From positions 9,651 through 73,650 of the forward strand of contig MHGF01000028.1 of NCBI GenBank assembly GCA_001805445.1: 64,000 nucleotides of DNA, given 5' to 3'. This DNA comes from Omnitrophica WOR_2 bacterium GWF2_43_52 (GTDB lineage: Bacteria; Omnitrophota; Gorgyraeia; Gygaellales; UBA12090). Shown here one piece after another: positions 1,971 to 54,434 of the stretch. Each line of letters starts with the position of its first letter. Within the stretch, counting starts at the first letter, position 1. Made by a program: the position numbers and the translations under genes. Below the pieces are notes generated by a model. That model was not told where the DNA came from and did not search any database. It worked only from the letters and a program-made list of their open reading frames with translations.

Positions 1971-3683
1971 TTACTCATCACTGGCAGTAACCCGGATAAT
2001 TTCCTCAAGCGAAGTAACGCCGTTTAAGGCCTTCGCAATCCCATCTTCCCGCAGCGTCTGCATTCCCTCAAGGCGCGCTTGCTGTTTTATCGTGTGTTCC
2101 TGCGCCCTCTCAAGAATAAGCTCCTTTATCCTTGGGCTTACCACAAGCACTTCCGCGACTACTGCTCTTCCTTTATATCCTGTATGATAACACTTTGGAC
2201 AGCCCTTAGGCCTAAAAAAAGTATATCCTTTCTTCTGGGGTGGAAATTTTAATCGAGCAACGATATCATCCTTGAGTATATACTGTTCCTTACACGCCGG
2301 ACAGAGAATCCTCGCCAGCCTCTGGGCTACGATACAGCTAACCGCGGAAGTAATCAAAAATGGCTCAACCCCCATATTGACCAGGCGTACAACCGCACCG
2401 CTGGCACTGGTGGTATGAATGGTAGAAAGCACCAAATGGCCGGTAAGGGCGGCTTTAACCGCAATATCGGCGGTTTCCGAATCGCGGATTTCCCCAACCA
2501 TAATCACATTAGGGTCCTGCCTGAGTATTGAACGCAGCGCTAAAGCAAAGCTCAAGCCGATTTCAGATTGGATATTGACTTGATTGATACCCGGAATCTG
2601 AAATTCTACAGGGTCTTCTACTGTAATAATATTTATTTTTGGTTTGTCTACAAGCTTTAATACCGAATATAAGGTAGTGGTTTTTCCCGCGCCTGTCGGC
2701 CCACAGGTTAAAATCATCCCATAAGGCCTGAAGGCGCATTTTTTCAGGTCTAGAAGAGCCTTTTCCTGAAACCCTAAAGTATCAATGTCTAAGTTAACCC
2801 TGGTTTTATCCAGAATGCGCAATGCTACCTTCTCCCCAAAACTTGTCGGCAAGACCGAAACGCGAAAATCAACCTCCCTCGCCGCGAATTTCATCGTAAA
2901 CCTTCCGTCTTGGGGAAGCCTGTGCTCTGAGATATCCAAGCCTGAAATAACCTTGATACGCGAAATAACCAAAGGGCTCATGCTGGTAGCACAATCAGGT
3001 TGTTCCTTAAGCATTCCGTCAATACGGAAACGTATCCTCAATCTTCTTTCCTGAGGCTCAATCAAAACATCCGAAACCTTAAGGTTCACCGCTTGTTCTA
3101 CCATCTTATTGATAAATGAAACAATGGGCGCTTCTTTAATAAGCCTCCCAAGCTCGTCAAGGGGAAGCTCAAATCCCTTCTCCTCCTGAATCAATTCTAT
3201 ATTTTCTGCCGATATCCCCTGAAGTAAGCCTTCAATTTCAGTTTTAGCGCTCTGCCCATAATATTGCTCAATAGCTTGAAGTACCCGGCGCGAATCCGCG
3301 ATAATAGGATTAATCTGATAACCGGTAAGCGTCTTTACATCATCGAGGGCGAGAATATTAAGGGGGTCAACCATAGCCAACGTCAGGGTATTGGCAAATC
3401 TTGAAATTGGCATAATCTGATACTGCCTGCAGATATTCGGGGGAATAAGGCTCAGGACTTCAGCGTCAATCGTAAAACGGGTCAAGTCAATGCTTGGCTT
3501 AGAAAATACCTTCGACATGGCGATAAGAAGTTTATCCGCGTCGATGAGTTTTTCCTTTACCAGGATATCACTTAAACTCCCCCCTTTGTCCTTCTGGATT
3601 TCTAATGCCTGCTTGAGGCTCTCCTGGGAAATAAGCTTACTTTCGGTGAGTGTTTGAATAATCCGCTCTTTGAGGGAAGGCAT
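1971..3683 (-). CDS. Type II secretion / type IV pilus assembly ATPase (GspE/PilB family), paralog 2
   Basis: 570 aa. Walker A 'GPTGAGKTT', tetracysteine 'CPAC...CPKC'. Tandem with paralog 1. Confidence 0.9.
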   Translation of the reverse strand: MPSLKERIIQTLTESKLISQESLKQALEIQKDKGGSLSDILVKEKLIDADKLLIAMSKVFSKPSIDLTRFTIDAEVLSLIPPNICRQYQIMPISRFANTLTLAMVDPLNILALDDVKTLTGYQINPIIADSRRVLQAIEQYYGQSAKTEIEGLLQGISAENIELIQEEKGFELPLDELGRLIKEAPIVSFINKMVEQAVNLKVSDVLIEPQERRLRIRFRIDGMLKEQPDCATSMSPLVISRIKVISGLDISEHRLPQDGRFTMKFAAREVDFRVSVLPTSFGEKVALRILDKTRVNLDIDTLGFQEKALLDLKKCAFRPYGMILTCGPTGAGKTTTLYSVLKLVDKPKINIITVEDPVEFQIPGINQVNIQSEIGLSFALALRSILRQDPNVIMVGEIRDSETADIAVKAALTGHLVLSTIHTTSASGAVVRLVNMGVEPFLITSAVSCIVAQRLARILCPACKEQYILKDDIVARLKFPPQKKGYTFFRPKGCPKCYHTGYKGRAVVAEVLVVSPRIKELILERAQEHTIKQQARLEGMQTLREDGIAKALNGVTSLEEIIRVTASDE

Positions 3684-3690
3684 ACTATGT

Positions 3691-3790
3691 AAAGGTTGCG
3701 TAAGGTTACGTGAGGTTGCGTAAAGTTACGTGAGGTTGCGTGAAGAAGTTACATAAGGTTACAAAGGCACCGTTACGAAACCTCACGCAA
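3691..3790. repeat. 10-bp-phased direct repeat array (aggttRcgtR x about 6) plus one inverted copy (cctcacgcaac)
   Basis: Read directly from the sequence: aggttgcgtaaggttacgtgaggttgcgtaaagttacgtgaggttgcgtgaagaagttac...cgttacgaaacctcacgcaac. Lies between the MshEN gene stop and the gspE-2 start. Confidence 0.7.
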
Positions 3791-4271: not shown

Positions 4272-5645
4272 TTACGTTTTGACCGTATCCAATGCCTTCT
4301 GCGCTGAAAGTATTAATTCCTGCGCCGTTACCCCGTCAAGCGGATTCTCCGCGACCACGGCAGATATGCTAAAGTTTCTTTGCGGATCAGGCTCTTTCTT
4401 GAAAAAACGCTCTACCTCCTGCTCCATTTCTTCAGCTATTTTCTGGGCCTGGCGCTTATTTTTTTCAGGGAAAATAACGGCAAATTGATAATCCGCGAAC
4501 CTTCCTATACGCTCATCACCGATGAAAAGATTGCCCATGCACGCCGCTGTTTTTTTCAGTATCGCCTCAGCGGCAATTAAGCCGTGGGCTTTCTGATATT
4601 CCATGAAGTTATTTATTTTTGCCAACACCAACGCGCAAGGCCGCTGGTAAAGAATTGCCCGTTTTATTTCCTCGTCAAGCCGGCTGCGGATATAATACTC
4701 GTTATAAAGGCCGGTAAGCATATCCTTGATTTCCAGTTTTTCAAGGCGTTCAACCATACAGTTATTCTCAATAGCAATCGCCATTTGCTTGCCGAATATG
4801 CTTAAGAGTTCAATGTCGTCAGCACTGTAGGTAAAGTCTAAAAGGGCGTTGCCGATTCCCAATAAGGCAACAGGCTTCTGATAAGAGAATATGGGAACGC
4901 CCAAGAAATGCTTAATCTCAAATCCGGCCAGGAACTTTTGGAAAGAATGTTTCTGATTCTTACTGTCGATAACTGTAGGTATATCTTTTTCCAGCATCTG
5001 AATTAAGCACATATTATGCTCTGAAAAGGTTGCCTTAAGCTTTGCTTCATGGGTTAGCCCCCACTGCGCCTTGAGGCTAAAAATACCTTCCTCTAAATAC
5101 AAAATAAATACCACGGAAGAATGCGCTAAATCCTTCACCTTTTCAACGCAAAGCGTTAAAACTGAATCGATCTCCCCTCCTTGAGCGACAACATCGGAAA
5201 TATGCAGGAGTGCCGAAATAAAATGTACCCGCTTCTGGATTTCTGAATTTATCTGGGCGGTTTTAGAGCCGTAATTCTTTAACTCGTCCATATTGAGCCT
5301 TATCTTTTGTGTAAGCTGATTAAGCGCCTGCCCAAGCTGGCCGATTTCATCTTCACCTTTAATATCAATGTGCTTCGGCACGCCTTGCTCTGCAATCAAG
5401 GTGGCTTCCCTGCTCAGTTTTACTACAGGGTCAAAAATCTGTTTGAGAATCGTGGCCCCGAGAATGACCAAGCCGAGCATTATCGCGATGACAATAACAA
5501 AATTCGACTTGATGCCAAAGCCTAGAAGAAAACTTGGAAAAATATAATTAAAGCAGATGAGGATAGGAATAACCGACATAAGGCATACAGCGATTATCAG
5601 CTTATACTTTATGCCTCGTGAAGATAAAGAACTGCTCTTAGCCAT
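4272..5645 (-). CDS. Membrane HAMP-GAF-GGDEF-domain protein with degenerate GGDEF motif (predicted non-catalytic)
   Basis: 457 aa. Two N-terminal TM segments, HAMP-like region, GAF-like middle, C-terminal 'DMLTGLYNEYY...GRFADYQF' instead of RxGGDEF. Confidence 0.75.
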   Translation of the reverse strand: MAKSSSLSSRGIKYKLIIAVCLMSVIPILICFNYIFPSFLLGFGIKSNFVIVIAIMLGLVILGATILKQIFDPVVKLSREATLIAEQGVPKHIDIKGEDEIGQLGQALNQLTQKIRLNMDELKNYGSKTAQINSEIQKRVHFISALLHISDVVAQGGEIDSVLTLCVEKVKDLAHSSVVFILYLEEGIFSLKAQWGLTHEAKLKATFSEHNMCLIQMLEKDIPTVIDSKNQKHSFQKFLAGFEIKHFLGVPIFSYQKPVALLGIGNALLDFTYSADDIELLSIFGKQMAIAIENNCMVERLEKLEIKDMLTGLYNEYYIRSRLDEEIKRAILYQRPCALVLAKINNFMEYQKAHGLIAAEAILKKTAACMGNLFIGDERIGRFADYQFAVIFPEKNKRQAQKIAEEMEQEVERFFKKEPDPQRNFSISAVVAENPLDGVTAQELILSAQKALDTVKT

Positions 5646-5894: not shown

Positions 5895-7619
5895 TTAAGC
5901 TGTCAAAACAATATGCTGCCAGGGCAAAACCGTATCTTCTGATAGCGCCTGACAATACGATTCCATCGGCCTCTGGCATTCTTCAAAAGCCTTGCGCCAG
6001 GTATTAAACTTAAAATGTTCCGTCCACCCATCAAGCATACAGCCATCCTGATAGGCTTTTAACAAAACCTTTCCTAACCTCCTGTTGCCGCGGGATACTA
6101 CCGCTTCTAAAAGGCTCGTTTCTAAGGCATGAAAATCAAGCCGTACCGCCTTTGGCAGGCATTGAGCTTTCTTTCGTAAATAGTTCCGCTTTTCACGCAG
6201 CACATCTAAAGAATCCATGGCAACGCGTTCAAAAGCAGTATGCGGCTTGGGCACAAAAAATGATATACTCGCGTGCACCTGCCCAAGGTAAGGGGTATAT
6301 TCCTTTCTTAAAAACGATACCTGCCGGGCCAAAGCAATGAGCGCGTCTAAATCGTCATAGGTCTCATCGGGTAAACCCAGCATAAAGTATAATTTTATTG
6401 ACTGCCAACCTGCCTTATATGCCGCTCGGATTGCCGCGTAAAATTCTTCAATATCAAAATTTTTATTTATTGCCTGCCTCATTCTTTCTGAGCCGGCCTC
6501 CGGAGCGAACGTAAGGGTGGTTTTTCGCACCCTTGATAGATACTCCGTTACATTGCCAAGATATGACTTTGGCCTTAAAGAAGGCAGGGATATCGCCACT
6601 GCCTGCTCTTGCATTCTTTCACGCAGGCCGTCAAGGACTTGCCTTAAGAAAGGATACTCGCTGGTAGATAAACTTAAGAATGAAATTTCTTCGTATCCGG
6701 AGGATCGAAGTATGTTCTCTGTAATTTCAATGATTTTCTCTGGCGAGCGTATTCTAAGCTTCTGATAGACAACTCTTGCCTGGCAAAAGCTGCAGTGGTG
6801 AGGACACCCGCGCATGAGCTCAATCGCCGCCCGGTCATGGACGATTTGAATATACGGCACAAGCCATTTTTGAGGATAATACGCGTTATTGAGATCCTCT
6901 ACAATGCGCTTTGTAATTCTCTGCGGCACGCCAGGATACAAGGGTAAAAATTTCTTAACCGCCCCCTCCTCATCATAGTCTACATCATAAAAAGAAGGGA
7001 TATACACCCCTCGCACAGCTGCTATTTTCTTGAGGATATCCTCTTTTGTGATTTGTGATTTGTGATTTGCGATTTGCGATTTATATATCTCAACTATTTC
7101 TAAAAGTGCCTCCTCTGCCTCTCCAATAAAAAAGATATCTATAAAATCCGCCAATGGTTCCGGATTCGTCACGCAAGGGCCTCCCGCGATAACTAAAGGA
7201 AACGCCAATGAACGATCTTTTGACAAAAGCGGTATCCCTGCCAGATCAAGCACCGCCAAAACATTGGTATAGGCTAACTCATAATTAAGGCAAAAGCCAA
7301 GAAAATCAAACTCGCTTAAAGGAATTTTTGATTCTAAAGAAAAAAGGGGAAGCTTCTTTTCTTTTAACAGCCCCTGCATATCTACGTCTGGCAAAAAAGC
7401 TCTTTCACACGCTATCCCAGGCTCTTCATTGAGCAACCCATAGAGTATCCGCAAACCCATATTACTCATCCCGATTTCATATAAATCAGGAAAACAAAGC
7501 GCGAAAGTCACTTCTTGCGCGTCAAAATCTTTCTTGACGGCATTCCATTCGTTCCCCACATACCTTCCCGGTTTTCTTACTTGTAAAAGTATATCCTCTA
7601 TCGCTACCACTCTTTTCAT
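5895..7619 (-). CDS. B12-binding-domain radical SAM protein (TIGR03960-like, uncharacterized family)
   Basis: 574 aa. 'RKPGRYVGNEWN' N-terminal signature, CxxxCxxC 'CPHHCSFC'. Located next to rodA/mrdA/mre genes, as is typical for this family. Confidence 0.8.
   Translation of the reverse strand: MKRVVAIEDILLQVRKPGRYVGNEWNAVKKDFDAQEVTFALCFPDLYEIGMSNMGLRILYGLLNEEPGIACERAFLPDVDMQGLLKEKKLPLFSLESKIPLSEFDFLGFCLNYELAYTNVLAVLDLAGIPLLSKDRSLAFPLVIAGGPCVTNPEPLADFIDIFFIGEAEEALLEIVEIYKSQIANHKSQITKEDILKKIAAVRGVYIPSFYDVDYDEEGAVKKFLPLYPGVPQRITKRIVEDLNNAYYPQKWLVPYIQIVHDRAAIELMRGCPHHCSFCQARVVYQKLRIRSPEKIIEITENILRSSGYEEISFLSLSTSEYPFLRQVLDGLRERMQEQAVAISLPSLRPKSYLGNVTEYLSRVRKTTLTFAPEAGSERMRQAINKNFDIEEFYAAIRAAYKAGWQSIKLYFMLGLPDETYDDLDALIALARQVSFLRKEYTPYLGQVHASISFFVPKPHTAFERVAMDSLDVLREKRNYLRKKAQCLPKAVRLDFHALETSLLEAVVSRGNRRLGKVLLKAYQDGCMLDGWTEHFKFNTWRKAFEECQRPMESYCQALSEDTVLPWQHIVLTA
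7045..7079. repeat. Heptanucleotide tandem repeat (tttgtga x3, tttgcga x2) inside the radical SAM CDS
   Basis: Read directly from the sequence. Encodes 'KSQIANHKSQITK' in the protein. Confidence 0.85.
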
Positions 7620-19384: not shown

Positions 19385-19420
19385 TATCAGCTCTCTGCTA
19401 TCAGCCATCAGCCATCAGCT
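19385..19420. repeat. Heptanucleotide repeat (atcagcY x3-4) in the ileS 5' leader
   Basis: gtatcagctctctgctatcagccatcagccatcagct sits immediately 5' of the ileS start codon. Confidence 0.8.
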
Positions 19421-33094: not shown

Positions 33095-34160
33095 AAAATG
33101 TCCGAATATTTTTTTCTAGCGCCTGGCGTTCCGCCGCTGAATCCATCAGGCCGCGGATAGTTTCGCTTAACCTAACAGCAGTAAGCTCATGTTCTTCGAT
33201 TACCACGGCTGCATTGTGCTTGGCTAACACAGAGGCGTTCTCCCGCTGATGGCCGCCGGCATAAGGATACGGGATCACTATCGCTGCCTTTCCATAATAA
33301 GCAAGCTCAGCGATTGTTCCAGCGCCCGCGCGGCAGACTACCACATCGGCTGCGCTATAGGCCCATTGCATCTGGGGTAAAAAATCAAAAAGGCGATGTT
33401 TAATTGTAGTATAGCGGGAACTTTTTTGCAAGCCTAAATAATCACGCCTTCCCGCGATATGAATAGCTTGCACCTCTCTTTGAGAGTCTAACAAAGAGAG
33501 CGCCTGGCTAAATTCATTGTTTATTCGATGCGACCCCTGACTGCCGCCAAGGGCCATAATGGTAAATCTGTCCTCCAAGTTAAAAAACCCGAGCGCCTCT
33601 TTCCTGTTTTTTGGCGTTAACGAAGCCCGTAAGGGGTTTCCCGTAAAAACACACCGGGGGCTAATTTTTTCTGACTCCTTAAAGCTTACGGCGATCGCGT
33701 CCGCGAAAGGGCTTAACCATTTATTTGCTTTCCCTAAGGATACGTTCTGTTCATGGAGTAGTATATGTTTCTTCAATAACGCCGCCTCAAGAAGTATAGG
33801 AAAACTCACATAAGAGCCAAAACCTATAACGACATCCGGCCTGAACTTTTCAATAATAAAAAATGACTCTATAAAAGATTTTATAAAACCGTATACTGCC
33901 TGCAATAATTTTTTAAGCGGCCCGCTAAAAGGGCGGATAGAAATCAGGTAGCACTGATACGGGGCAATGTTACTTTCTATTCCGTTGCGCCGCGAGGAAA
34001 CAAAGGCAATCGTGCACAAAGGGTACTGCCGCGCGATACACTCGGCAAATGAAAGCGCCGGATAAAGATGCCCCGCGCTAGCCCCCGCGGCAATAAGGAT
34101 ACGCCATGCTCCGGCAGTCTTTGATGCGCTCTCTGAAGATAACGAATGCTCAGGGCTCAT
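33039..34160 (-). CDS. murG: UDP-N-acetylglucosamine--N-acetylmuramyl-(pentapeptide) pyrophosphoryl-undecaprenol N-acetylglucosamine transferase
   Basis: 373 aa GT28 family. Confidence 0.9.
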   Translation of the reverse strand: MSPEHSLSSESASKTAGAWRILIAAGASAGHLYPALSFAECIARQYPLCTIAFVSSRRNGIESNIAPYQCYLISIRPFSGPLKKLLQAVYGFIKSFIESFFIIEKFRPDVVIGFGSYVSFPILLEAALLKKHILLHEQNVSLGKANKWLSPFADAIAVSFKESEKISPRCVFTGNPLRASLTPKNRKEALGFFNLEDRFTIMALGGSQGSHRINNEFSQALSLLDSQREVQAIHIAGRRDYLGLQKSSRYTTIKHRLFDFLPQMQWAYSAADVVVCRAGAGTIAELAYYGKAAIVIPYPYAGGHQRENASVLAKHNAAVVIEEHELTAVRLSETIRGLMDSAAERQALEKNIRTFCVSDGAARLARLAVRFLS

Positions 34161-35251
34161 GGATTCTCGCCAAACCGTGCCACGTTAAGCAAAAGGCCCA
34201 CGCCAATCATATCAAAAATTAACGATGAGCCGCCATAACTGATAAAAGGTAATGGCAGCCCTTTTGTAGGAAAGACGCCGGCACTTACCCCGATATTAAT
34301 CACCGCTTTAAGAGAAATTAAAGAAACAATACCCAAACTCAAAAAGGCCCCGAAGGCATCAGAGGCGTATTTAATAATTTTACAGCTGTAAACAAAAAAA
34401 AGAATGAATAAACAAACAACAAACACCGCCGCTATAAATCCCAGTTCTTCCCCGATAATGGAAAAAATAAAATCCGTATGCGCCGCGGGCAGATAGGACA
34501 ACTTCTGAATACTTTTACCTAAACCTTTGCCGAACCAGCCTCCTGAACCCAAAGCAACCTGTGACTGAATAAGCTGAAAACCTGAACCCAAGGGGTCTGC
34601 CCAGGGATTTAAAAATGCCATAATCCTCTGCCGGCGGTACGGAACGCTGAAAACTAACAGGTAAAGAAACGGCACAGCCGCGATAAAAATGTAGAAAAGA
34701 TACCTAAGCTTTGCCCCCGCGGCAAAAAGCATAAGAGCCACAACCATACCCAAAGCCACAACCGTCCCTAAATCCGGCTGTATAAGAATTAAAATACTCA
34801 CCACCCCTAAAACTATTATTGCCGGTAAGAATCCGCTGCTAAAACGCTCCATCCTGCTTACGCCTTTTTTCGATAAGAAGGCAGCCACATACGTAATCAC
34901 CGCTAAATTCGCGAATTCAGAGGGCTGAAAACCAAACCCCCAGATACGAAACCACCGTTTTGCCCCTGAAATCTCCCTGCTTATTCCCGGCACATGTAAA
35001 AGCACCAATAATAATAAAGCGCACAAGACTAAGATTTTCGAGTACTTGGCAAGAACACGATAATCCATCGCCATAACCAAAAATGAGAAAAAGATACCCA
35101 CGGTAATAAAGATCAGCTGTTTTTTAAGAAAATACGCGCTATCTTTATATTTTTCCCAGCTATAAATAGCAGTTGAGCTGTAAATCATGACTACGCCTAT
35201 AGCAAGTAAAGTCAGCACAATCATTACGAGGGAAATTCTTATATGGCGCAT
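34157..35251 (-). CDS. ftsW: Cell division protein FtsW (SEDS peptidoglycan polymerase)
   Basis: 364 aa SEDS family. Position murD-ftsW-murG. Confidence 0.9.
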   Translation of the reverse strand: MRHIRISLVMIVLTLLAIGVVMIYSSTAIYSWEKYKDSAYFLKKQLIFITVGIFFSFLVMAMDYRVLAKYSKILVLCALLLLVLLHVPGISREISGAKRWFRIWGFGFQPSEFANLAVITYVAAFLSKKGVSRMERFSSGFLPAIIVLGVVSILILIQPDLGTVVALGMVVALMLFAAGAKLRYLFYIFIAAVPFLYLLVFSVPYRRQRIMAFLNPWADPLGSGFQLIQSQVALGSGGWFGKGLGKSIQKLSYLPAAHTDFIFSIIGEELGFIAAVFVVCLFILFFVYSCKIIKYASDAFGAFLSLGIVSLISLKAVINIGVSAGVFPTKGLPLPFISYGGSSLIFDMIGVGLLLNVARFGENP

Positions 35252-35320
35252 ATCAGTGAGCGGGTAAACGGGTTCGCGGGTGAACGGGTTAACTCATAAA
35301 CCCGCTCACCGGCTCACTCG

Positions 35321-36604
35321 CTAACCGGTTAACCTATTTACTATCTCCTTAAACACCTTTCCCCTATGTTCATAGTTTTCAAACATATCGAAACTCGCGC
35401 ACATGGGAGAAAGCAAGACACAATCCCCTGGTTGGGCATTACTAAAACTAACCTTAACCGCCTCCTCAAGGCTTGAGACTTCTGTAATAGGTAAAACACC
35501 GTTAAGTGCCGCGCGTATTTTATCTTTAGCCTCTCCAAACAAAACAAGGAGCTTTACCTTGAGCTTCATTACACTAGCAATCTGGCGGTAATCGCTTTTT
35601 TTATCCCGCCCTCCGGCAATCAAAAAAGCCGGTTTATGGATAGTATGCAATGCCCATACAGTAGAATCAACATTCGTTGCCTTTGAATCATTGATAAAAT
35701 CTATTTCGTTAATGGTACGGACTACTTCCATACGATGCTCAACGCCCTTGAAGTTACAAAACACTTCATCACTCACAGCATCGGGGATAGCAAAAATAGT
35801 GGCAACCGCCTTTACCGCAAGGTGATTGGGATTCAGATTGCTTTCTCCACTCTTTAGGTGGTTGTGCATACTGAAAAAAACCGTCTTTGCCCTGGTTTCC
35901 TGTGACAATACCCTGAGTGATGGATCATCGTAATTAAGTACCGTAAAGTCATGCTCATCCTGATTCATGAAAATTCGTTTTTTTGCCTGAAAGTATTCCC
36001 GCATATCTTTGTAACGGTCAAGATGATCGGGAGTCAGATTTAAAATCACCGATACGCGAGGTTTAAAATTACGAATGGTTTCTAATTGAAAAGAACTTAC
36101 CTCCAGTGAAACAAAATCATCTTTGGTAAGGTTCAAAACCTCTTGCGAAAACGGCCTACCGATATTGCCTAAGGCTAACGCCTTCTTCCCGGATGCCTCT
36201 AACACCTTAGCCATCAGGGTAGTAACCGTGGTCTTGCCGTTTGTCCCGGTAACGGCAATGACGGTTGCCGGGCACAACGACCATGCCAGCTCTATCTCGC
36301 TTATAACAGGAATACGCAATGTATCAGCCCACCGTAAGGCCTCTGAGGTATTACTCACCCCGGGGCTTACTACCAGCAAATCCTTGTTACGGATAAAATC
36401 TAAAGTATGCCCTCCGATTTCTACGATAAAACCCTTCCTTCGCAAATCCTCGGCACTTGCCTTTATCTTTTCCTGCGAGCCGCTGTCGCTAAGGAATACC
36501 TCGGCCCCTGCCTCTCTAAGCAAATGCCCGGCCGCAATTCCGCTTCGCGCCATGCCAACTACCACAACTTTTTTATTTTTGTAACTTAGCCCTTTCTCCA
36601 TCAT
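35321..36604 (-). CDS. murD: UDP-N-acetylmuramoylalanine--D-glutamate ligase
   Basis: 427 aa Mur ligase. 'GTNGKTTVT'. Confidence 0.9.
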   Translation of the reverse strand: MMEKGLSYKNKKVVVVGMARSGIAAGHLLREAGAEVFLSDSGSQEKIKASAEDLRRKGFIVEIGGHTLDFIRNKDLLVVSPGVSNTSEALRWADTLRIPVISEIELAWSLCPATVIAVTGTNGKTTVTTLMAKVLEASGKKALALGNIGRPFSQEVLNLTKDDFVSLEVSSFQLETIRNFKPRVSVILNLTPDHLDRYKDMREYFQAKKRIFMNQDEHDFTVLNYDDPSLRVLSQETRAKTVFFSMHNHLKSGESNLNPNHLAVKAVATIFAIPDAVSDEVFCNFKGVEHRMEVVRTINEIDFINDSKATNVDSTVWALHTIHKPAFLIAGGRDKKSDYRQIASVMKLKVKLLVLFGEAKDKIRAALNGVLPITEVSSLEEAVKVSFSNAQPGDCVLLSPMCASFDMFENYEHRGKVFKEIVNRLTG

Positions 36605-36650
36605 ACTCTCTACTCTCTACTCTCTACTCTCTACTCTCTACTCTCTACTT
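36603..36650. repeat. Heptanucleotide tandem repeat (ctctact x about 7) in the murD-mraY intergenic region
   Basis: Read directly from the sequence. Coordinates plus or minus 2. Confidence 0.85.
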
Positions 36651-36651
36651 T

Positions 36652-37746
36652 TTACCGTATTTTTAACGTTGCTAAGGTAAGCACCGCCAAGATTATCCCC
36701 ACTATCCAGAAGCGCACAATTACTTTACTTTCCGGGCAACCTAAGACCTGAAAATGATGGTGTAAAGGAGCAACTTTAAATATCCGCTTTCCTTTTCGCA
36801 GCCGAAACGACCCGACCTGTAAAATTACCGATAATGCCTCAACAACAAAGATTCCACCGACAACAACCAAAAGAAGTTCTTTTTTAATAAAAACCGCTAT
36901 AGTCCCGATAGCCCCTCCTAATGCCAAAGAGCCTATATCGCCCATAAAGACGCTTGCCGGAAAACAATTAAACCATAAAAACCCCAAACCCGCTCCTAAA
37001 ATACTCGCGCAAAAAACAGTCAATTCCCCTGAGCCGGGAATAAAAGGAATCAACAAATATTTACTAAAAACAAGATGGCCAGAGACATAACTTAAAATAG
37101 TATAGGTCAATGTCACCATAATGGTAGAACCAATAGCCAGGCCATCCAACCCATCCGTAAGATTAACGGCGTTGGAACAACCCACAACCACGACCATAAC
37201 AAAAAAGATATAAAACAATCCCAGATTAAGCATACTTTCTTTTAAAAAAGGGACATCAATGTGCGGCCCAAGATTTTTGTCATAATAGGCAAAGAGGCCA
37301 ACACCTAATCCTATCAACGCCTGGGGGATGAATTTCTCCGTAATACTAAGGCCCTTGGAACGTTTTTTGGTAAGTTTGATATAATCATCGCGAAACCCTA
37401 TCCAGCTAAAGCATAGAGTTACGACAAGAGTAAGAAGGATATAGCGATTCTGTAAATCCGCCCAGAGCAAAACCGAGAGCACAATACTTAACAAAATAAG
37501 GATCCCGCCCATGGTGGGAGTACCGGCCTTTGAGCTATGCAGCTGATATAAATCCAGGCACTCCTCAGCGCTGCGTAAGTGCTGGCCTATCTTTAACTGG
37601 GCGAGCTTACGAATCAGCCAGGGCCCAAAAATAATGCTGATAAGAAAAGCCGTCGTAGCGGCTAAGACGGCTCTGAAGGTGATATACTTAAAAATGTTAA
37701 AAAAAGAATGGAACTCTCTGAGAGGATAAAGGAGATGAAAAAGCAT
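36652..37746 (-). CDS. mraY: Phospho-N-acetylmuramoyl-pentapeptide transferase
   Basis: 364 aa polytopic. MraY motifs. Confidence 0.92.
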   Translation of the reverse strand: MLFHLLYPLREFHSFFNIFKYITFRAVLAATTAFLISIIFGPWLIRKLAQLKIGQHLRSAEECLDLYQLHSSKAGTPTMGGILILLSIVLSVLLWADLQNRYILLTLVVTLCFSWIGFRDDYIKLTKKRSKGLSITEKFIPQALIGLGVGLFAYYDKNLGPHIDVPFLKESMLNLGLFYIFFVMVVVVGCSNAVNLTDGLDGLAIGSTIMVTLTYTILSYVSGHLVFSKYLLIPFIPGSGELTVFCASILGAGLGFLWFNCFPASVFMGDIGSLALGGAIGTIAVFIKKELLLVVVGGIFVVEALSVILQVGSFRLRKGKRIFKVAPLHHHFQVLGCPESKVIVRFWIVGIILAVLTLATLKIR

Positions 37747-49493: not shown

Positions 49494-49581
49494 TTCAAAC
49501 ATGATAGCGCAATGTCAGAATCTAATGTCACAGCGCACTAGTATCCCTTATACACTTTACACTTACACACTTACACACTTT

Positions 49582-50493: not shown

Positions 50494-51119
50494 CTGCCGC
50501 CTTCAGAATGCGTTAAAAAGGGATTGGCCTTTCGTTCTTTCCCTATCGTAGAGTGAGGGCCGTGCCCGGGATAAATAATTGTCGCATCGGGCAAAACCAA
50601 TAATTTCTCACGGATGGATTTTATGAGCTGTTCATGGGAAGCTCCGGGAAAATCAGTCCTTCCCACGCTTCCGGCAAACAAGGTATCGCCGGTAAAGACA
50701 ATGGCATCGCAGGCAAAACATATTCCTCCCGGGGTATGCCCCGGAGTAAAAAGAACCTTCAAGATTATCTCATCAAGGATTATTGTATCAGAATCCTGAA
50801 CGGGCTTTATCTGGCCATCAACCTTAAAAGGATGGCTTAAAAAACTGGAAAGATTTTTATCGGGATTTTTTAAAAGTTCAACGTCTAACGCGTGAACATA
50901 CACAGGAAGATTAAATTCATTATCGGCCTGAATATGGTCAATATGGCCATGGGTATGCGCGATTATTTTAGCGGTGAGCTTCTTCTTTTGGAGAAATGCC
51001 TTTATCTTGGGGCAATCATCGCCGGGATCTATCAAGATAGCATTATGTGTGGCGTCACTTGAAACGATATAGCAATTCTCCTGAATTTCGCCTACGCAAA
51101 GAGTATCAACACGCATCAC
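50475..51119 (-). CDS. MBL-fold metallo-hydrolase
   Basis: 214 aa. 'HTHGHIDH' metal motif. Confidence 0.85.
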   Translation of the reverse strand: MMRVDTLCVGEIQENCYIVSSDATHNAILIDPGDDCPKIKAFLQKKKLTAKIIAHTHGHIDHIQADNEFNLPVYVHALDVELLKNPDKNLSSFLSHPFKVDGQIKPVQDSDTIILDEIILKVLFTPGHTPGGICFACDAIVFTGDTLFAGSVGRTDFPGASHEQLIKSIREKLLVLPDATIIYPGHGPHSTIGKERKANPFLTHSEGGSCGVSR

Positions 51120-51643
51120 AATAAATCCTTTCTAATCTTTAGAAAGGAAAAATTACGGCTGAGCCTTGATTTAATTCTCTCAACCTTGAGCCTGAGATAT
51201 TCATAATCAGGGCCGTTCAGGCGGCCCGCGAAGACAATCTCCTTGACTGTCTTAAATTCAGCAACAAGCGGCTCCATGGCCTTTGCCTTTTGCTCAGATA
51301 AGAGCGACTGCATTTTCAGGAGATTATCCAAGGCTTCATAAGCGCATTCCTTCTGTTTTTTGGCGTTATCATTTTCATTGAGATGAAGCAATGCTTCGTC
51401 TGACCATGTCTGCCAAAAAAGATAATAATCCATGTAAAGCTGTTCTTTGGAAACACTCGTTTCTGGATAAACCTGAGGCTCAATGATAGGCTCTTCCCTT
51501 TTAATCTCTTTTGGCTTTCGGGTAAACTTACGCACAAAAGCCTCGCAGCCGGTTAAAGTAGTAAGGAGTAAGCAGAGAGTAGAAAGTAAAATTATTCTGG
51601 TAACCTGTGACCTGTGACCTGTGACCTGTGACCTGCGACTCAT
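51116..51643 (-). CDS. Predicted lipoprotein (lipobox LTGC) of unknown function
   Basis: 175 aa. Signal plus 'LTGCEA'. N-terminus encoded by a heptamer tandem repeat. Confidence 0.7.
   Translation of the reverse strand: MSRRSQVTGHRSQVTRIILLSTLCLLLTTLTGCEAFVRKFTRKPKEIKREEPIIEPQVYPETSVSKEQLYMDYYLFWQTWSDEALLHLNENDNAKKQKECAYEALDNLLKMQSLLSEQKAKAMEPLVAEFKTVKEIVFAGRLNGPDYEYLRLKVERIKSRLSRNFSFLKIRKDLL
51604..51638. repeat. Heptanucleotide tandem repeat (cctgtga x4, cctgcga x1) at the 5' end of the lipoprotein CDS
   Basis: Read directly from the sequence. Encodes 'SQVTGHRSQVT' between the start codon and the signal peptide. Confidence 0.9.
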
Positions 51644-51697
51644 TGTATCATCTCCTTTCCCGCCTTACATTTAAAATAGCGCGGGATCCCGCCTTCC

Positions 51698-54434
<2,737 letters not shown>

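What the first reader, a model, noticed from the sequence alone, without database searches (positions are those of the whole stretch)
51604..51643. Heptamer repeat at the 5' end of a lipoprotein gene: candidate phase-variable surface lipoprotein
Four or five copies of cctgtga lie between the only available ATG and the signal peptide/lipobox (LTGC). This is the classic architecture of slipped-strand-regulated surface proteins, where a change in unit number switches the reading frame on or off.
Basis: partly seen in the sequence, partly recalled or inferred. Interest (0 to 1): 0.55.

Follow-up and report, generated by a model that had tools for sequence, protein, structure and literature searches.

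The report
Heptamer repeat encoding lipoprotein signal peptide
A 7-base repeat at the start of a conserved Omnitrophota lipoprotein gene could in principle switch the gene off by slipping, but every informative natural copy found is in frame, so it looks like a tolerated, slowly shifting repeat that builds the export signal, not a proven on/off switch.

Summary
The repeat is real. On the minus strand, ATGAG is followed by TCGCAGG and four TCACAGG units (window 51604-51638). They are translated as residues 3-14 of a 175-aa lipoprotein precursor of Omnitrophica WOR_2 GWF2_43_52. The layout fits a slipped-strand switch: the ATG is the only usable start, and one unit more or fewer gives an early stop.

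Switching itself is not supported. Fifteen distinct contigs besides the window (98.1-100% identical) all carry exactly five units. None of the 78 informative orthologs (80 loci retrieved) is out of frame.

The wider pattern is more interesting. In 37 of those 78 species the signal-peptide-coding region holds a period-7 array, about 50 times the density elsewhere in the same loci. The units differ between species. Copy numbers differ between relatives (3, 5, 9, or 1 versus 4), always with the frame kept, by steps of three units or by compensating indels.

My best reading is a slippage-prone, in-frame microsatellite that builds a permissive signal peptide, with selection keeping the gene on (confidence 0.55). 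A rare on/off switch is not excluded (0.22). Counting repeat units in raw reads would decide.

The parts
51116..51643 (-). Lipoprotein precursor gene, 175 aa (GenBank OGX01994.1, locus tag A2Y00_00475, hypothetical protein of Omnitrophica WOR_2 bacterium GWF2_43_52).
   Evidence: ORF list. Exact match to P0001. 101 homologs, all Omnitrophota-type, with no Pfam or NCBIfam family.
51652..51656 (-). Shine-Dalgarno sequence AGGAG, 8 nt upstream of the start codon.
   Evidence: Sequence. The GGAGATG..CAATG context is conserved in relatives L114-L116.
51641..51643 (-). ATG start codon, the only in-frame ATG/GTG/TTG upstream of the lipobox.
   Evidence: and the frame translations.
51604..51638 (-). 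Heptamer array of five units, TCGCAGG followed by TCACAGG x4. It is translated as residues 3-14 (RRSQVTGHRSQV) of the positively charged start (n-region) of the signal peptide. Three units encode one 7-aa period, SQVTGHR.
   Evidence: Identical in 15 other contigs.
51597..51603 (-). Degenerate sixth unit TTACCAG (4 of 7 bases match), at the junction with unique sequence.
   Evidence: The same TTACC[AC][GT] junction occurs in relatives L114 and L116.
51557..51595 (-). Hydrophobic core (h-region) of the signal peptide, IILLSTLCLLLTT. It overlaps a weak second period-7 tract (TTACT-type units).
   Evidence: TRF 51555-51588, period 7, 4.9 copies, 74% matches, score 33. Clearer T-rich arrays at the same place in orthologs: TTACTAG, TTTTTAC, TACTCTC, CTTGTGT.
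51545..51556 (-). Lipobox L-T-G-C. The codon of Cys33 is 51545-51547.
   Evidence: G32 and C33 are invariant in 34 aligned family members.
51116..51544 (-). Mature protein. An almost invariant EAFVRKFTRKPK segment directly follows the cysteine, then a linker and a four-helix bundle (residues 66-175).
   Evidence: Alignment A1. AlphaFold2 model with mean pLDDT 84, above 95 over the bundle. Foldseek finds only generic four-helix bundles, E >= 0.05.
51681..51692 (-). Palindrome GCGGGATCCCGC in the 54-nt spacer between the ligA stop codon (51698-51700) and the lipoprotein gene.
   Evidence: Conserved in L114 and L115. Function not tested.

Best explanation
The array is an old, slippage-prone heptanucleotide microsatellite that is translated. 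It supplies most of the positively charged start (n-region) of the signal peptide of a conserved Omnitrophota lipoprotein. Signal peptidase II would remove that part after lipidation of Cys33.

Seven is not divisible by three, so three units encode one 7-aa period (SQVTGHR). Only changes of three units, or slips compensated by a nearby indel, keep the gene readable.

Slippage does occur over evolutionary time. It homogenises units and changes copy number. Selection for an expressed protein removes the out-of-frame products, so nature shows only in-frame states. In this organism's population that state is five units.

The repeat persists because the n-region and hydrophobic core of a signal peptide accept almost any basic or hydrophobic low-complexity sequence. 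On this reading it makes the signal peptide evolve fast; it is not a regulatory on/off switch.

Shown: the anatomy, the constant copy number in the population, the enrichment across the family, and the in-frame-only variation. Inferred: slippage as the mechanism, cleavage and lipidation, and the absence of a switching function.
For: Anatomy:
- The array, start codon and lipobox are as described. Out-of-frame products are confirmed by translation.

Population:
- 15 distinct contigs besides the window, 98.1-100% identical to it, all carry TCGCAGG + 4 x TCACAGG.
- No allele of another length exists in the 90%-identity cluster, apart from a strain 97.5% identical whose n-region holds two degenerate units plus a 30-nt insertion.
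- An intergenic 6.4-unit array in the same genome is also invariant.

Family:
- 37 of 78 informative orthologous loci have a period-7 array in the 123 nt up to and including the Cys codon; shuffles give 0-2 loci.
- That is 44 TRF rows in 9.6 kb against 35 rows in 393 kb outside.
- 16 perfect tracts of at least 21 nt lie there, against 4 in the other ~460 kb.
- 78 of 78 informative orthologs are in frame with a start codon.

Slippage with the frame kept:
- Relatives carry 3, 5 and 9 units, with 1-nt and 8-nt compensating indels.
- A 171-aa allele with (AAAGTCA)x4 and a 164-aa allele differ by exactly 7 aa, which equals three units.
- AAATTCA x4 against AAACTCA/AAACTTA at the same length in close relatives shows the units changing together.

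Permissiveness:
- Within 90%-identity clusters the mature proteins are 95-98% identical, but the signal peptides are 36-83% identical and 21-49 aa long.
- Arrays in the n-region are A/C-rich and encode K/R/Q/N/S/T. Arrays in the hydrophobic core are T-rich and encode L/F/V/T/S/Y.

Background:
- Heptameric repeats are reported as over-represented in many bacteria and are attributed to polymerase slippage (PMC4692102).
Against: - A 50-fold hot spot in one gene family, with many perfect arrays of different units, is more than simple tolerance predicts. Other exported or membrane proteins in the window have no such arrays.
- Copy-number differences of 2 and 4 units with compensating indels imply that lineages passed through out-of-frame states, so the gene is not always indispensable.
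- Perfect tracts cluster tightly at 29-34 nt, which is unexplained.
- All population evidence is assembly consensus. Many contigs are re-assemblies of the same aquifer datasets, so minority out-of-frame subpopulations would be invisible.
- Two public assemblies have NN scaffold breaks exactly at the array. That could reflect heterogeneity among reads or only an assembly problem at the repeat.
Confidence: 0.55

Rival explanations
1. It is a true contingency locus. Slipped-strand mispairing of the heptamer tract reversibly turns the lipoprotein off and on at a low rate. Selection in the sampled habitats keeps the majority allele on.
For: - All structural prerequisites are met.
- Repeats whose unit is not a multiple of three are enriched about 50-fold in the 5' coding region of this family, and many are perfect. 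That is the usual bioinformatic signature of contingency loci.
- Units change together, and copy numbers differ by amounts that are not multiples of three, so slips and out-of-frame intermediates have occurred.
- The architecture matches the opa CTCTT leader repeats, which switch at about 1e-3 per generation (PMC3960869).
Against: - None of the 78 informative species representatives is out of frame, and none of the 15 distinct population contigs differs in copy number.
- The only possible off allele is one rearranged or chimeric 2-kb contig in another species (L120).
- Tracts are short, at most 5.4 units, and their length is conserved between related species.
- The gene is a core gene with conserved neighbours (ligA, lipoprotein, metallo-beta-lactamase-fold hydrolase, xerC-like recombinase) across at least 40 array-bearing loci inspected, unlike typical accessory surface antigens.
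- From my own knowledge: characterised switches usually have longer tracts, and a large share of sequenced alleles are off.
Confidence: 0.22
2. The array is selected for a cis effect on expression, not for frameshifting. One possibility is that it keeps the translation-initiation region unstructured, or binds a factor, as proposed for heptamer repeats just upstream of start codons in Beggiatoaceae. Another is that it tunes export through in-frame changes in n-region length and charge (steps of three units).
For: - Arrays in this genome and its relatives cluster at start codons: immediately upstream for murD, the 914-aa ORF and the ORF at 3683, and within 3-8 nt after the ATG in 14 lipoprotein genes (13 orthologs and the window's own).
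- (TCACAGG)x5 folds at -1.4 kcal/mol, against a mean of -10.6 for permuted units.
- 10 of 15 n-region units fold at -1.4 kcal/mol or weaker.
- In-frame alleles with 1 and 4 units coexist in one 90%-identity cluster.
- Precedent in PMC4679880.
Against: - Most units are no less structured than permutations of themselves, and some fold strongly (CAGGGCG -14, TTACTAG -11.8).
- The local RNA fold is unremarkable, z = -1.5.
- Units are very diverse, so a sequence-specific binder is unlikely.
- Half of the orthologs have no detectable array.
Confidence: 0.13
3. It is a chance low-complexity stretch or an assembly artefact with no biological meaning.
For: None beyond the short length of the tract.
Against: No occurrence in 100 shuffles. 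Identical in 15 independently assembled contigs. Homologous arrays in many species.
Confidence: 0.01

Closest known systems
Neisseria opa genes: CTCTT pentamer coding repeats in the leader-peptide region (slipped-strand phase variation; PMC3960869)
   Same: The repeat unit is not a multiple of three. It lies inside the signal-peptide-coding 5' end and is translated as part of the leader. One unit more or fewer shifts the frame.
   Different: opa tracts are longer and polymorphic, switch at about 1e-3 per generation, and belong to a multigene family of surface antigens in a host-adapted pathogen. Here the tract has five units, the copy number is fixed, every allele seen is on, and the gene is a single-copy core gene with conserved neighbours in an environmental phylum.
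Helicobacter pylori oipA and related outer-membrane protein genes: CT dinucleotide repeats in the signal-sequence region (PMC10564699)
   Same: A simple-sequence repeat in the 5' signal-sequence region that can frameshift the gene.
   Different: The unit is a dinucleotide, and off alleles are described in isolates. No off alleles were found here.
Heptameric simple-sequence repeats over-represented in bacterial genomes: Xanthomonas GGGAATC, Nostoc GGGGA(T/C)T and the three heptanucleotide repeats of Calothrix PCC 7601 (PMC4692102), and Beggiatoaceae TAACTGA (PMC4679880)
   Same: 7-nt units with 2-6 copies, found at gene boundaries and close to start codons. Period 7 is also the dominant tandem-repeat class in this window and in 410 kb of Omnitrophota loci.
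   Different: Those systems use one characteristic unit genome-wide and are mainly intergenic. Here units differ from locus to locus and species to species, and the array is translated inside a signal peptide.
Haemophilus influenzae hmw1A/hmw2A 7-bp promoter repeats (PMC8262952)
   Same: A heptanucleotide repeat that modulates a surface protein.
   Different: Those repeats lie in the promoter and give graded transcription. Here the repeat is within coding sequence. From my own knowledge, hmw tracts are also much longer.

Membership tests
Simple-sequence-repeat contingency locus (slipped-strand phase variation) | A repeat tract whose unit is not a multiple of 3, inside the ORF or its promoter. 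| tested here: met
   7-nt unit, five copies, codons 3-14.
Simple-sequence-repeat contingency locus (slipped-strand phase variation) | Gain or loss of one unit abolishes the product. | tested here: met
   Four units give a stop after 14 codons. Six units give a 40-aa out-of-frame peptide. There is no alternative start before the lipobox.
Simple-sequence-repeat contingency locus (slipped-strand phase variation) | Copy-number polymorphism among cells, strains or samples of one species. | tested here: not met
   15 distinct contigs plus the window all have five units. There are no length variants in the protein cluster. This is consensus level only.
Simple-sequence-repeat contingency locus (slipped-strand phase variation) | Out-of-frame (off) alleles present among natural sequences. 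| tested here: not met
   78 of 78 informative orthologs are in frame. Shortened gene calls proved to be in frame. One rearranged contig, L120, is the only doubtful case.
Simple-sequence-repeat contingency locus (slipped-strand phase variation) | A tract long and pure enough for a high slippage rate, with a measured switching rate. | not testable with these tools
   The tract has four perfect units and one imperfect. Perfect tracts across the family are 21-38 nt. Measuring a rate needs reads or cultures.
Bacterial lipoprotein precursor (substrate of Lgt and signal peptidase II) | Basic n-region, uncharged hydrophobic core, and a lipobox [LVI][ASTVI][GAS]C with the Cys within about 15-35 residues of the start. 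| tested here: met
   MSRR..R16, IILLSTLCLLLTT, L-T-G-C33. G and C are invariant in the family. The lipobox pattern is recalled from my own knowledge of PROSITE PS51257.
Bacterial lipoprotein precursor (substrate of Lgt and signal peptidase II) | Actual lipidation and cleavage. | not testable with these tools
   One oddity: the conserved basic stretch RKFTRKPK begins only 5 residues after the Cys.
Heptameric intergenic repeat class (Mrazek 2007 as cited in PMC4692102; TAACTGA-type repeats) | Period 7 over-represented relative to other periods. | tested here: met
   80 of about 195 TRF rows in the ortholog loci are period 7. Excluding the signal-peptide region (78 informative loci), 35 rows remain, still the largest class.
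Heptameric intergenic repeat class (Mrazek 2007 as cited in PMC4692102; TAACTGA-type repeats) | Intergenic location with one characteristic unit genome-wide. | tested here: not met
   This array is translated. Units differ between loci: TCACAGG, GTAGAGA, GGCTGAT, TCACAAA.

The most novel reading that the evidence does not exclude
Heptanucleotide microsatellites are a selected, phylum-wide building block of this lipoprotein's signal peptide. The 5' end would be a conserved hypermutable module that works in one of two ways: as a rare on/off contingency switch, or as a 'quantised' length switch in steps of three units, with only in-frame states surviving. That would be the first contingency-type locus conserved across an uncultivated, largely non-pathogenic phylum. 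It would also be a natural case of signal peptides being generated and continually rebuilt from repeats whose unit is not a multiple of three.
Probability: 0.2. Interest if true: 0.7.

Novelty: new variant of a known kind. Interest (0 to 1): 0.5.

Why it matters
Genome scans usually treat a 5' coding repeat whose unit is not a multiple of three as evidence for phase variation. Here is a counter-example. The same gene family shows about 50-fold enrichment of such repeats across a phylum, yet no out-of-frame allele was found. This argues that permissive coding segments such as signal peptides can act as refuges for microsatellites. Annotation of 'contingency loci' in uncultivated bacteria should therefore not rest on anatomy alone.

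It also gives a concrete, testable system for two questions: how signal peptides can arise and turn over from simple repeats, and whether Omnitrophota, many of which may be host-dependent, use slippage-based variation at all.

Tried and rejected
- Gapped and ungapped DNA pattern scans of metagenome contigs, and a pattern scan of genome contigs, for alleles with other copy numbers found nothing at all. Those collections apparently do not hold this species, so this says nothing about variation.
- The 139-aa cluster member P0102 looked like an out-of-frame allele. Its two contigs carry the normal five in-frame units, so it is only a different gene call.
- The shortened members P0113 and P0153 in other clusters are likewise in frame: the contig ends nearby, or the start is GTG.
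- L021's 816-aa 'fusion' with ligA is a scaffold join (NN) at the repeat, not biology.
- A twin-arginine (Tat) signal (MSRRSQV) was considered and rejected. The RR is 12 residues from the hydrophobic core, and most family members lack it.
- No Pfam or NCBIfam family matches. The structure search gave only generic four-helix bundles such as cytochrome b562 and c', so no function can be assigned.
- The RNA fold around the start codon is unremarkable, z = -1.5. The promoter and terminator scan gave nothing above background.
- The test of whether units are unusually unstructured was inconclusive.
- Literature searches found no description of heptamer repeats in Omnitrophota.

Full report
**Observation**

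The + strand at 51604-51638 reads cctgtga four times, then cctgcga. Tandem Repeats Finder gives period 7, 5.3 copies, 96% matches and score 67. Five units allowing one mismatch occur once in the window and never in 100 dinucleotide-preserving shuffles.

The gene lies on the minus strand, 51116..51643, and encodes 175 aa. Its 5' end reads AGGAG, 8 nt, ATG AG, TCGCAGG, TCACAGG x4, then TTACCAG. The product begins MSRRSQVTGHRSQVTRIILLSTLCLLLTTLTGC. This has a basic n-region, a hydrophobic core and an L-T-G-C lipobox with Cys33. No ATG, GTG or TTG lies in frame between the repeat and the cysteine.

**Gene and organism**

The protein is identical to a hypothetical protein of Omnitrophica WOR_2 bacterium GWF2_43_52. 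It has 101 homologs, all from Omnitrophota-type assemblies and 136-248 aa long (most 160-195). None has a Pfam or NCBIfam assignment.

In an alignment of 34 members the lipobox G and C are invariant. The segment just after the cysteine, EAFVRKFTRKPK, is the best-conserved part. The residues before the hydrophobic core vary from 2 to about 30 aa.

An AlphaFold2 model gives a confident four-helix bundle for residues 66-175. It matches only generic helical bundles in the PDB. The gene order ligA, this lipoprotein, a metallo-beta-lactamase-fold hydrolase and a xerC-like recombinase recurs in the window, in this species' contigs and in the array-bearing ortholog loci. In many species the lipoprotein ATG overlaps the ligA stop codon. 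It therefore looks like a core gene, not an accessory surface antigen.

**Could the repeat act as a switch?**

In principle, yes. Deleting one unit gives MSRRSQVTGHRLPE followed by a stop. Adding one gives a 40-aa out-of-frame peptide. This is the architecture of the Neisseria opa CTCTT leader repeats, which switch at about 1e-3 per generation (PMC3960869).

**Does it switch?**

Three lines of evidence bear on this.

- *Exact look-ups.* I looked up contigs carrying the exact protein, and contigs carrying the downstream hydrolase. The second look-up does not depend on the repeat.
  - Together they gave 15 distinct contigs besides the window, from NCBI, ENA, JGI and other assemblies of several groundwater samples.
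  - The contigs are 98.1-100% identical to the window. All carry TCGCAGG plus four TCACAGG.
- *The protein cluster.* The 90%-identity cluster in a collection of 15 billion proteins has six members.
  - Four are 175-aa variants with the same N-terminus.
  - One is a 139-aa gene call whose DNA is the normal in-frame allele.
  - One is a 184-aa protein from a strain 97.5% identical. Its n-region holds two degenerate units plus a 30-nt GC-rich insertion.
- *An unconstrained control.* A 6.4-unit intergenic array upstream of murD in the same genome is identical in nine contigs.

There are caveats. Consensus sequences hide minority alleles. Many contigs are re-assemblies from one aquifer. Pattern scans of the two large DNA collections returned nothing because they do not hold this species.

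**The family-wide pattern**

I retrieved 80 orthologous loci from species-representative Omnitrophota genomes. Period 7 is by far the commonest tandem-repeat period in them, with 80 of about 195 TRF rows.

| Measure | Signal-peptide region | Rest of the sequence searched |
|---|---|---|
| Period-7 TRF rows | 44 in 9.6 kb | 35 in 393 kb (78 informative loci) |
| Perfect period-7 tracts of 21 nt or more | 16 | 4 in ~460 kb (80 loci plus the window) |

- 37 of the 78 informative loci have a period-7 (or 14 or 21) array in the 123 nt up to and including the Cys codon. Shuffled controls give 0-2 loci.
- The density is about 50-fold higher than elsewhere in the same loci.
- No arrays of period 3, 9 or 12 occur in that region.
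- Units differ between species. In the n-region they include AAACTCA, AAATTCA, AAATTCC, ACACGAC, GCAAGGG, CAGGGCG, AAGCTAC and AGTCACA. These often begin 3-8 nt after the ATG.
- In the hydrophobic core the units are TTACTAG, TTTTTAC, TACTCTC and CTTGTGT.
- The proteins show the matching 7-aa periodicity: MKFKIQNSKFKIT, MKYTTHDTRHTT, LLLVTSYSLLVT, FLLFTFYFLLFT.
- Outside this gene, substantial heptamer arrays are intergenic. The one exception is an in-frame array inside a radical-SAM gene of the window.
- Other membrane or exported proteins of the window have no such arrays.

**Every allele is on**

All 78 informative orthologs have a start codon 14-60 codons upstream of the cysteine with no intervening stop. 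The other two loci are cut by a scaffold gap or by a contig end exactly in this region. If a fraction f of consensus alleles were off, 0 of 78 implies f below about 4% at 95% confidence. This is my own calculation.

**Slippage has nevertheless happened**

- Close relatives of the window gene carry the same array family in different numbers:
  - 9 degenerate units plus an extra 8 nt (63% aa identity);
  - 5 degenerate units (73%);
  - 3 units with ATGG in place of ATGAG (70%).

  Differences of 4 and 2 units are thus offset by 8-nt and 1-nt indels that restore the frame.
- In another species cluster, one allele has (AAAGTCA)x4 directly after the ATG. A sister allele is exactly 7 aa shorter, which equals three units.
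- Two close relatives have AAATTCA x4 and AAACTCA/AAACTTA at the same length, so all units changed together.
- Within 90%-identity clusters the mature proteins are 95-98% identical. The signal peptides are only 36-83% identical and 21-49 aa long.

The 5' end is therefore a hypervariable, repeat-driven segment in which only in-frame outcomes are seen.

**Interpretation**

The best-supported reading (confidence 0.55) is an old, slippage-prone microsatellite that is translated into a permissive part of the protein. Selection for an expressed lipoprotein filters its changes.

A true but rare on/off switch remains possible (0.22). The enrichment of perfect repeats with a unit that is not a multiple of three, and the evidence for past out-of-frame intermediates, speak for it. 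The complete absence of off alleles, the short tracts and the core-gene context speak against it.

A cis role in translation initiation, or tuning of n-region length in steps of three units, is a third option (0.13).
- For it: arrays in this genome sit directly at start codons, and (TCACAGG)x5 is unusually unstructured. This resembles the TAACTGA repeats of Beggiatoaceae (PMC4679880).
- Against it: the unit-structure test was not general, and the local RNA fold is unremarkable.

**Comparison with known systems and novelty**

Heptameric repeats are reported as over-represented in many bacteria, and polymerase slippage is the suggested cause (PMC4692102). Signal-sequence repeats that cause phase variation are classic (PMC3960869, PMC10564699).

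What I did not find described is a phylum-wide, strongly enriched set of translated heptamer arrays that build a signal peptide while every allele stays in frame. Two literature searches turned up nothing of this kind, one for heptanucleotide repeats with signal peptides and phase variation and one for tandem repeats in Omnitrophota. I classify it as a new variant of a known kind and rate its interest as moderate. The specific claim of phase variation is unproven and currently disfavoured. Counting repeat units in raw reads would settle it.

Noticed in passing
window 36604-36649: A perfect (GTAGAGA)x6.6 array on the minus strand fills the whole spacer between mraY (36652..37746) and murD (35321..36604) and ends at the murD ATG. 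It is identical in nine contigs, and one Logan contig ends inside it.
   Followed up: partly
window 7045-7082: A heptamer array (TCGCAAA x2 then TCACAAA x3.4) lies in frame inside a radical-SAM gene (5895..7619) and encodes KSQIANHKSQITK. Its unit is 1-2 bases from the lipoprotein unit. It is the only substantial internal-coding heptamer array in 474 kb examined.
   Followed up: partly
window 19385-19420, 3692-3762, 35256-35326: Other short tandem repeats lie in intergenic spacers. (GGCTGAT)x3 and a 10/20-nt repeat (about 7 copies) sit directly upstream of start codons, where a Shine-Dalgarno sequence would be expected. 8-nt repeats fill the 69-nt spacer between murD and the next ORF downstream (34157..35251).
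   Followed up: no
window 49547-49580; L038, L049, L061, L062, L080 at about 4500-4990 (about 2890 in the shorter L080): A second conserved hot spot lies in the spacer just after the xerC-like gene. It carries an 8-mer array in the window and heptamer arrays of various units in five or more other species.
   Followed up: partly
L013 1516-1545; L117-L119 (about 20 nt after the ATG): Short GC-rich palindromic insertions interrupt the n-region arrays in close relatives: 30 nt (TCCGCCGCAGGCGGATGCGCCTACGGCGCA) and 21 nt (CTGTCTGCCGATCAGGCAGGC). They are in frame. Similar peptides (CLSGRQ, CLPAGR, PAYRQAG) appear in other orthologs, which suggests a small hairpin-forming insertion element.
   Followed up: no
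protein clusters of P0028, P0016, P0071, P0030: Near-identical mature proteins (95-98%) carry unrelated signal peptides 21-49 aa long. One signal-peptide type (HRLHR[FL]K.QITQI) recurs on distantly related mature proteins, which hints at recombinational exchange of the 5' end.
   Followed up: partly
L021 680-681; L031 (5' end of the gene); L113 1-29: Two public genome assemblies have NN scaffold breaks exactly at the lipoprotein array, and one contig ends inside the murD array. Either heptamer arrays break assemblies or the reads are heterogeneous there.
   Followed up: no
L120 280-345: In one 2-kb contig of another species, the 5' half of the signal peptide is replaced by unrelated AT-rich DNA with no start codon. 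This is either a rearranged pseudogene allele or a chimeric assembly. It is the only possible off allele seen.
   Followed up: partly
window 1-64000: All ORFs of gene-like length and arrangement (about 60) lie on the minus strand, and GC skew is negative throughout. This is an unusually long co-directional block.
   Followed up: no
window 51681-51692: The palindrome GCGGGATCCCGC, followed by a T-rich stretch, lies between the ligA stop and the lipoprotein Shine-Dalgarno sequence. It is conserved in two related species. It could be a terminator or attenuator, and was not detected by the simple terminator scan.
   Followed up: no
window 51506-51544 (residues 34-46): The most conserved part of the family is a basic stretch (EAFVRKFTRKPK) immediately after the lipidated cysteine. 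This is unusual, because early mature-region positive charges normally hinder Sec export.
   Followed up: no
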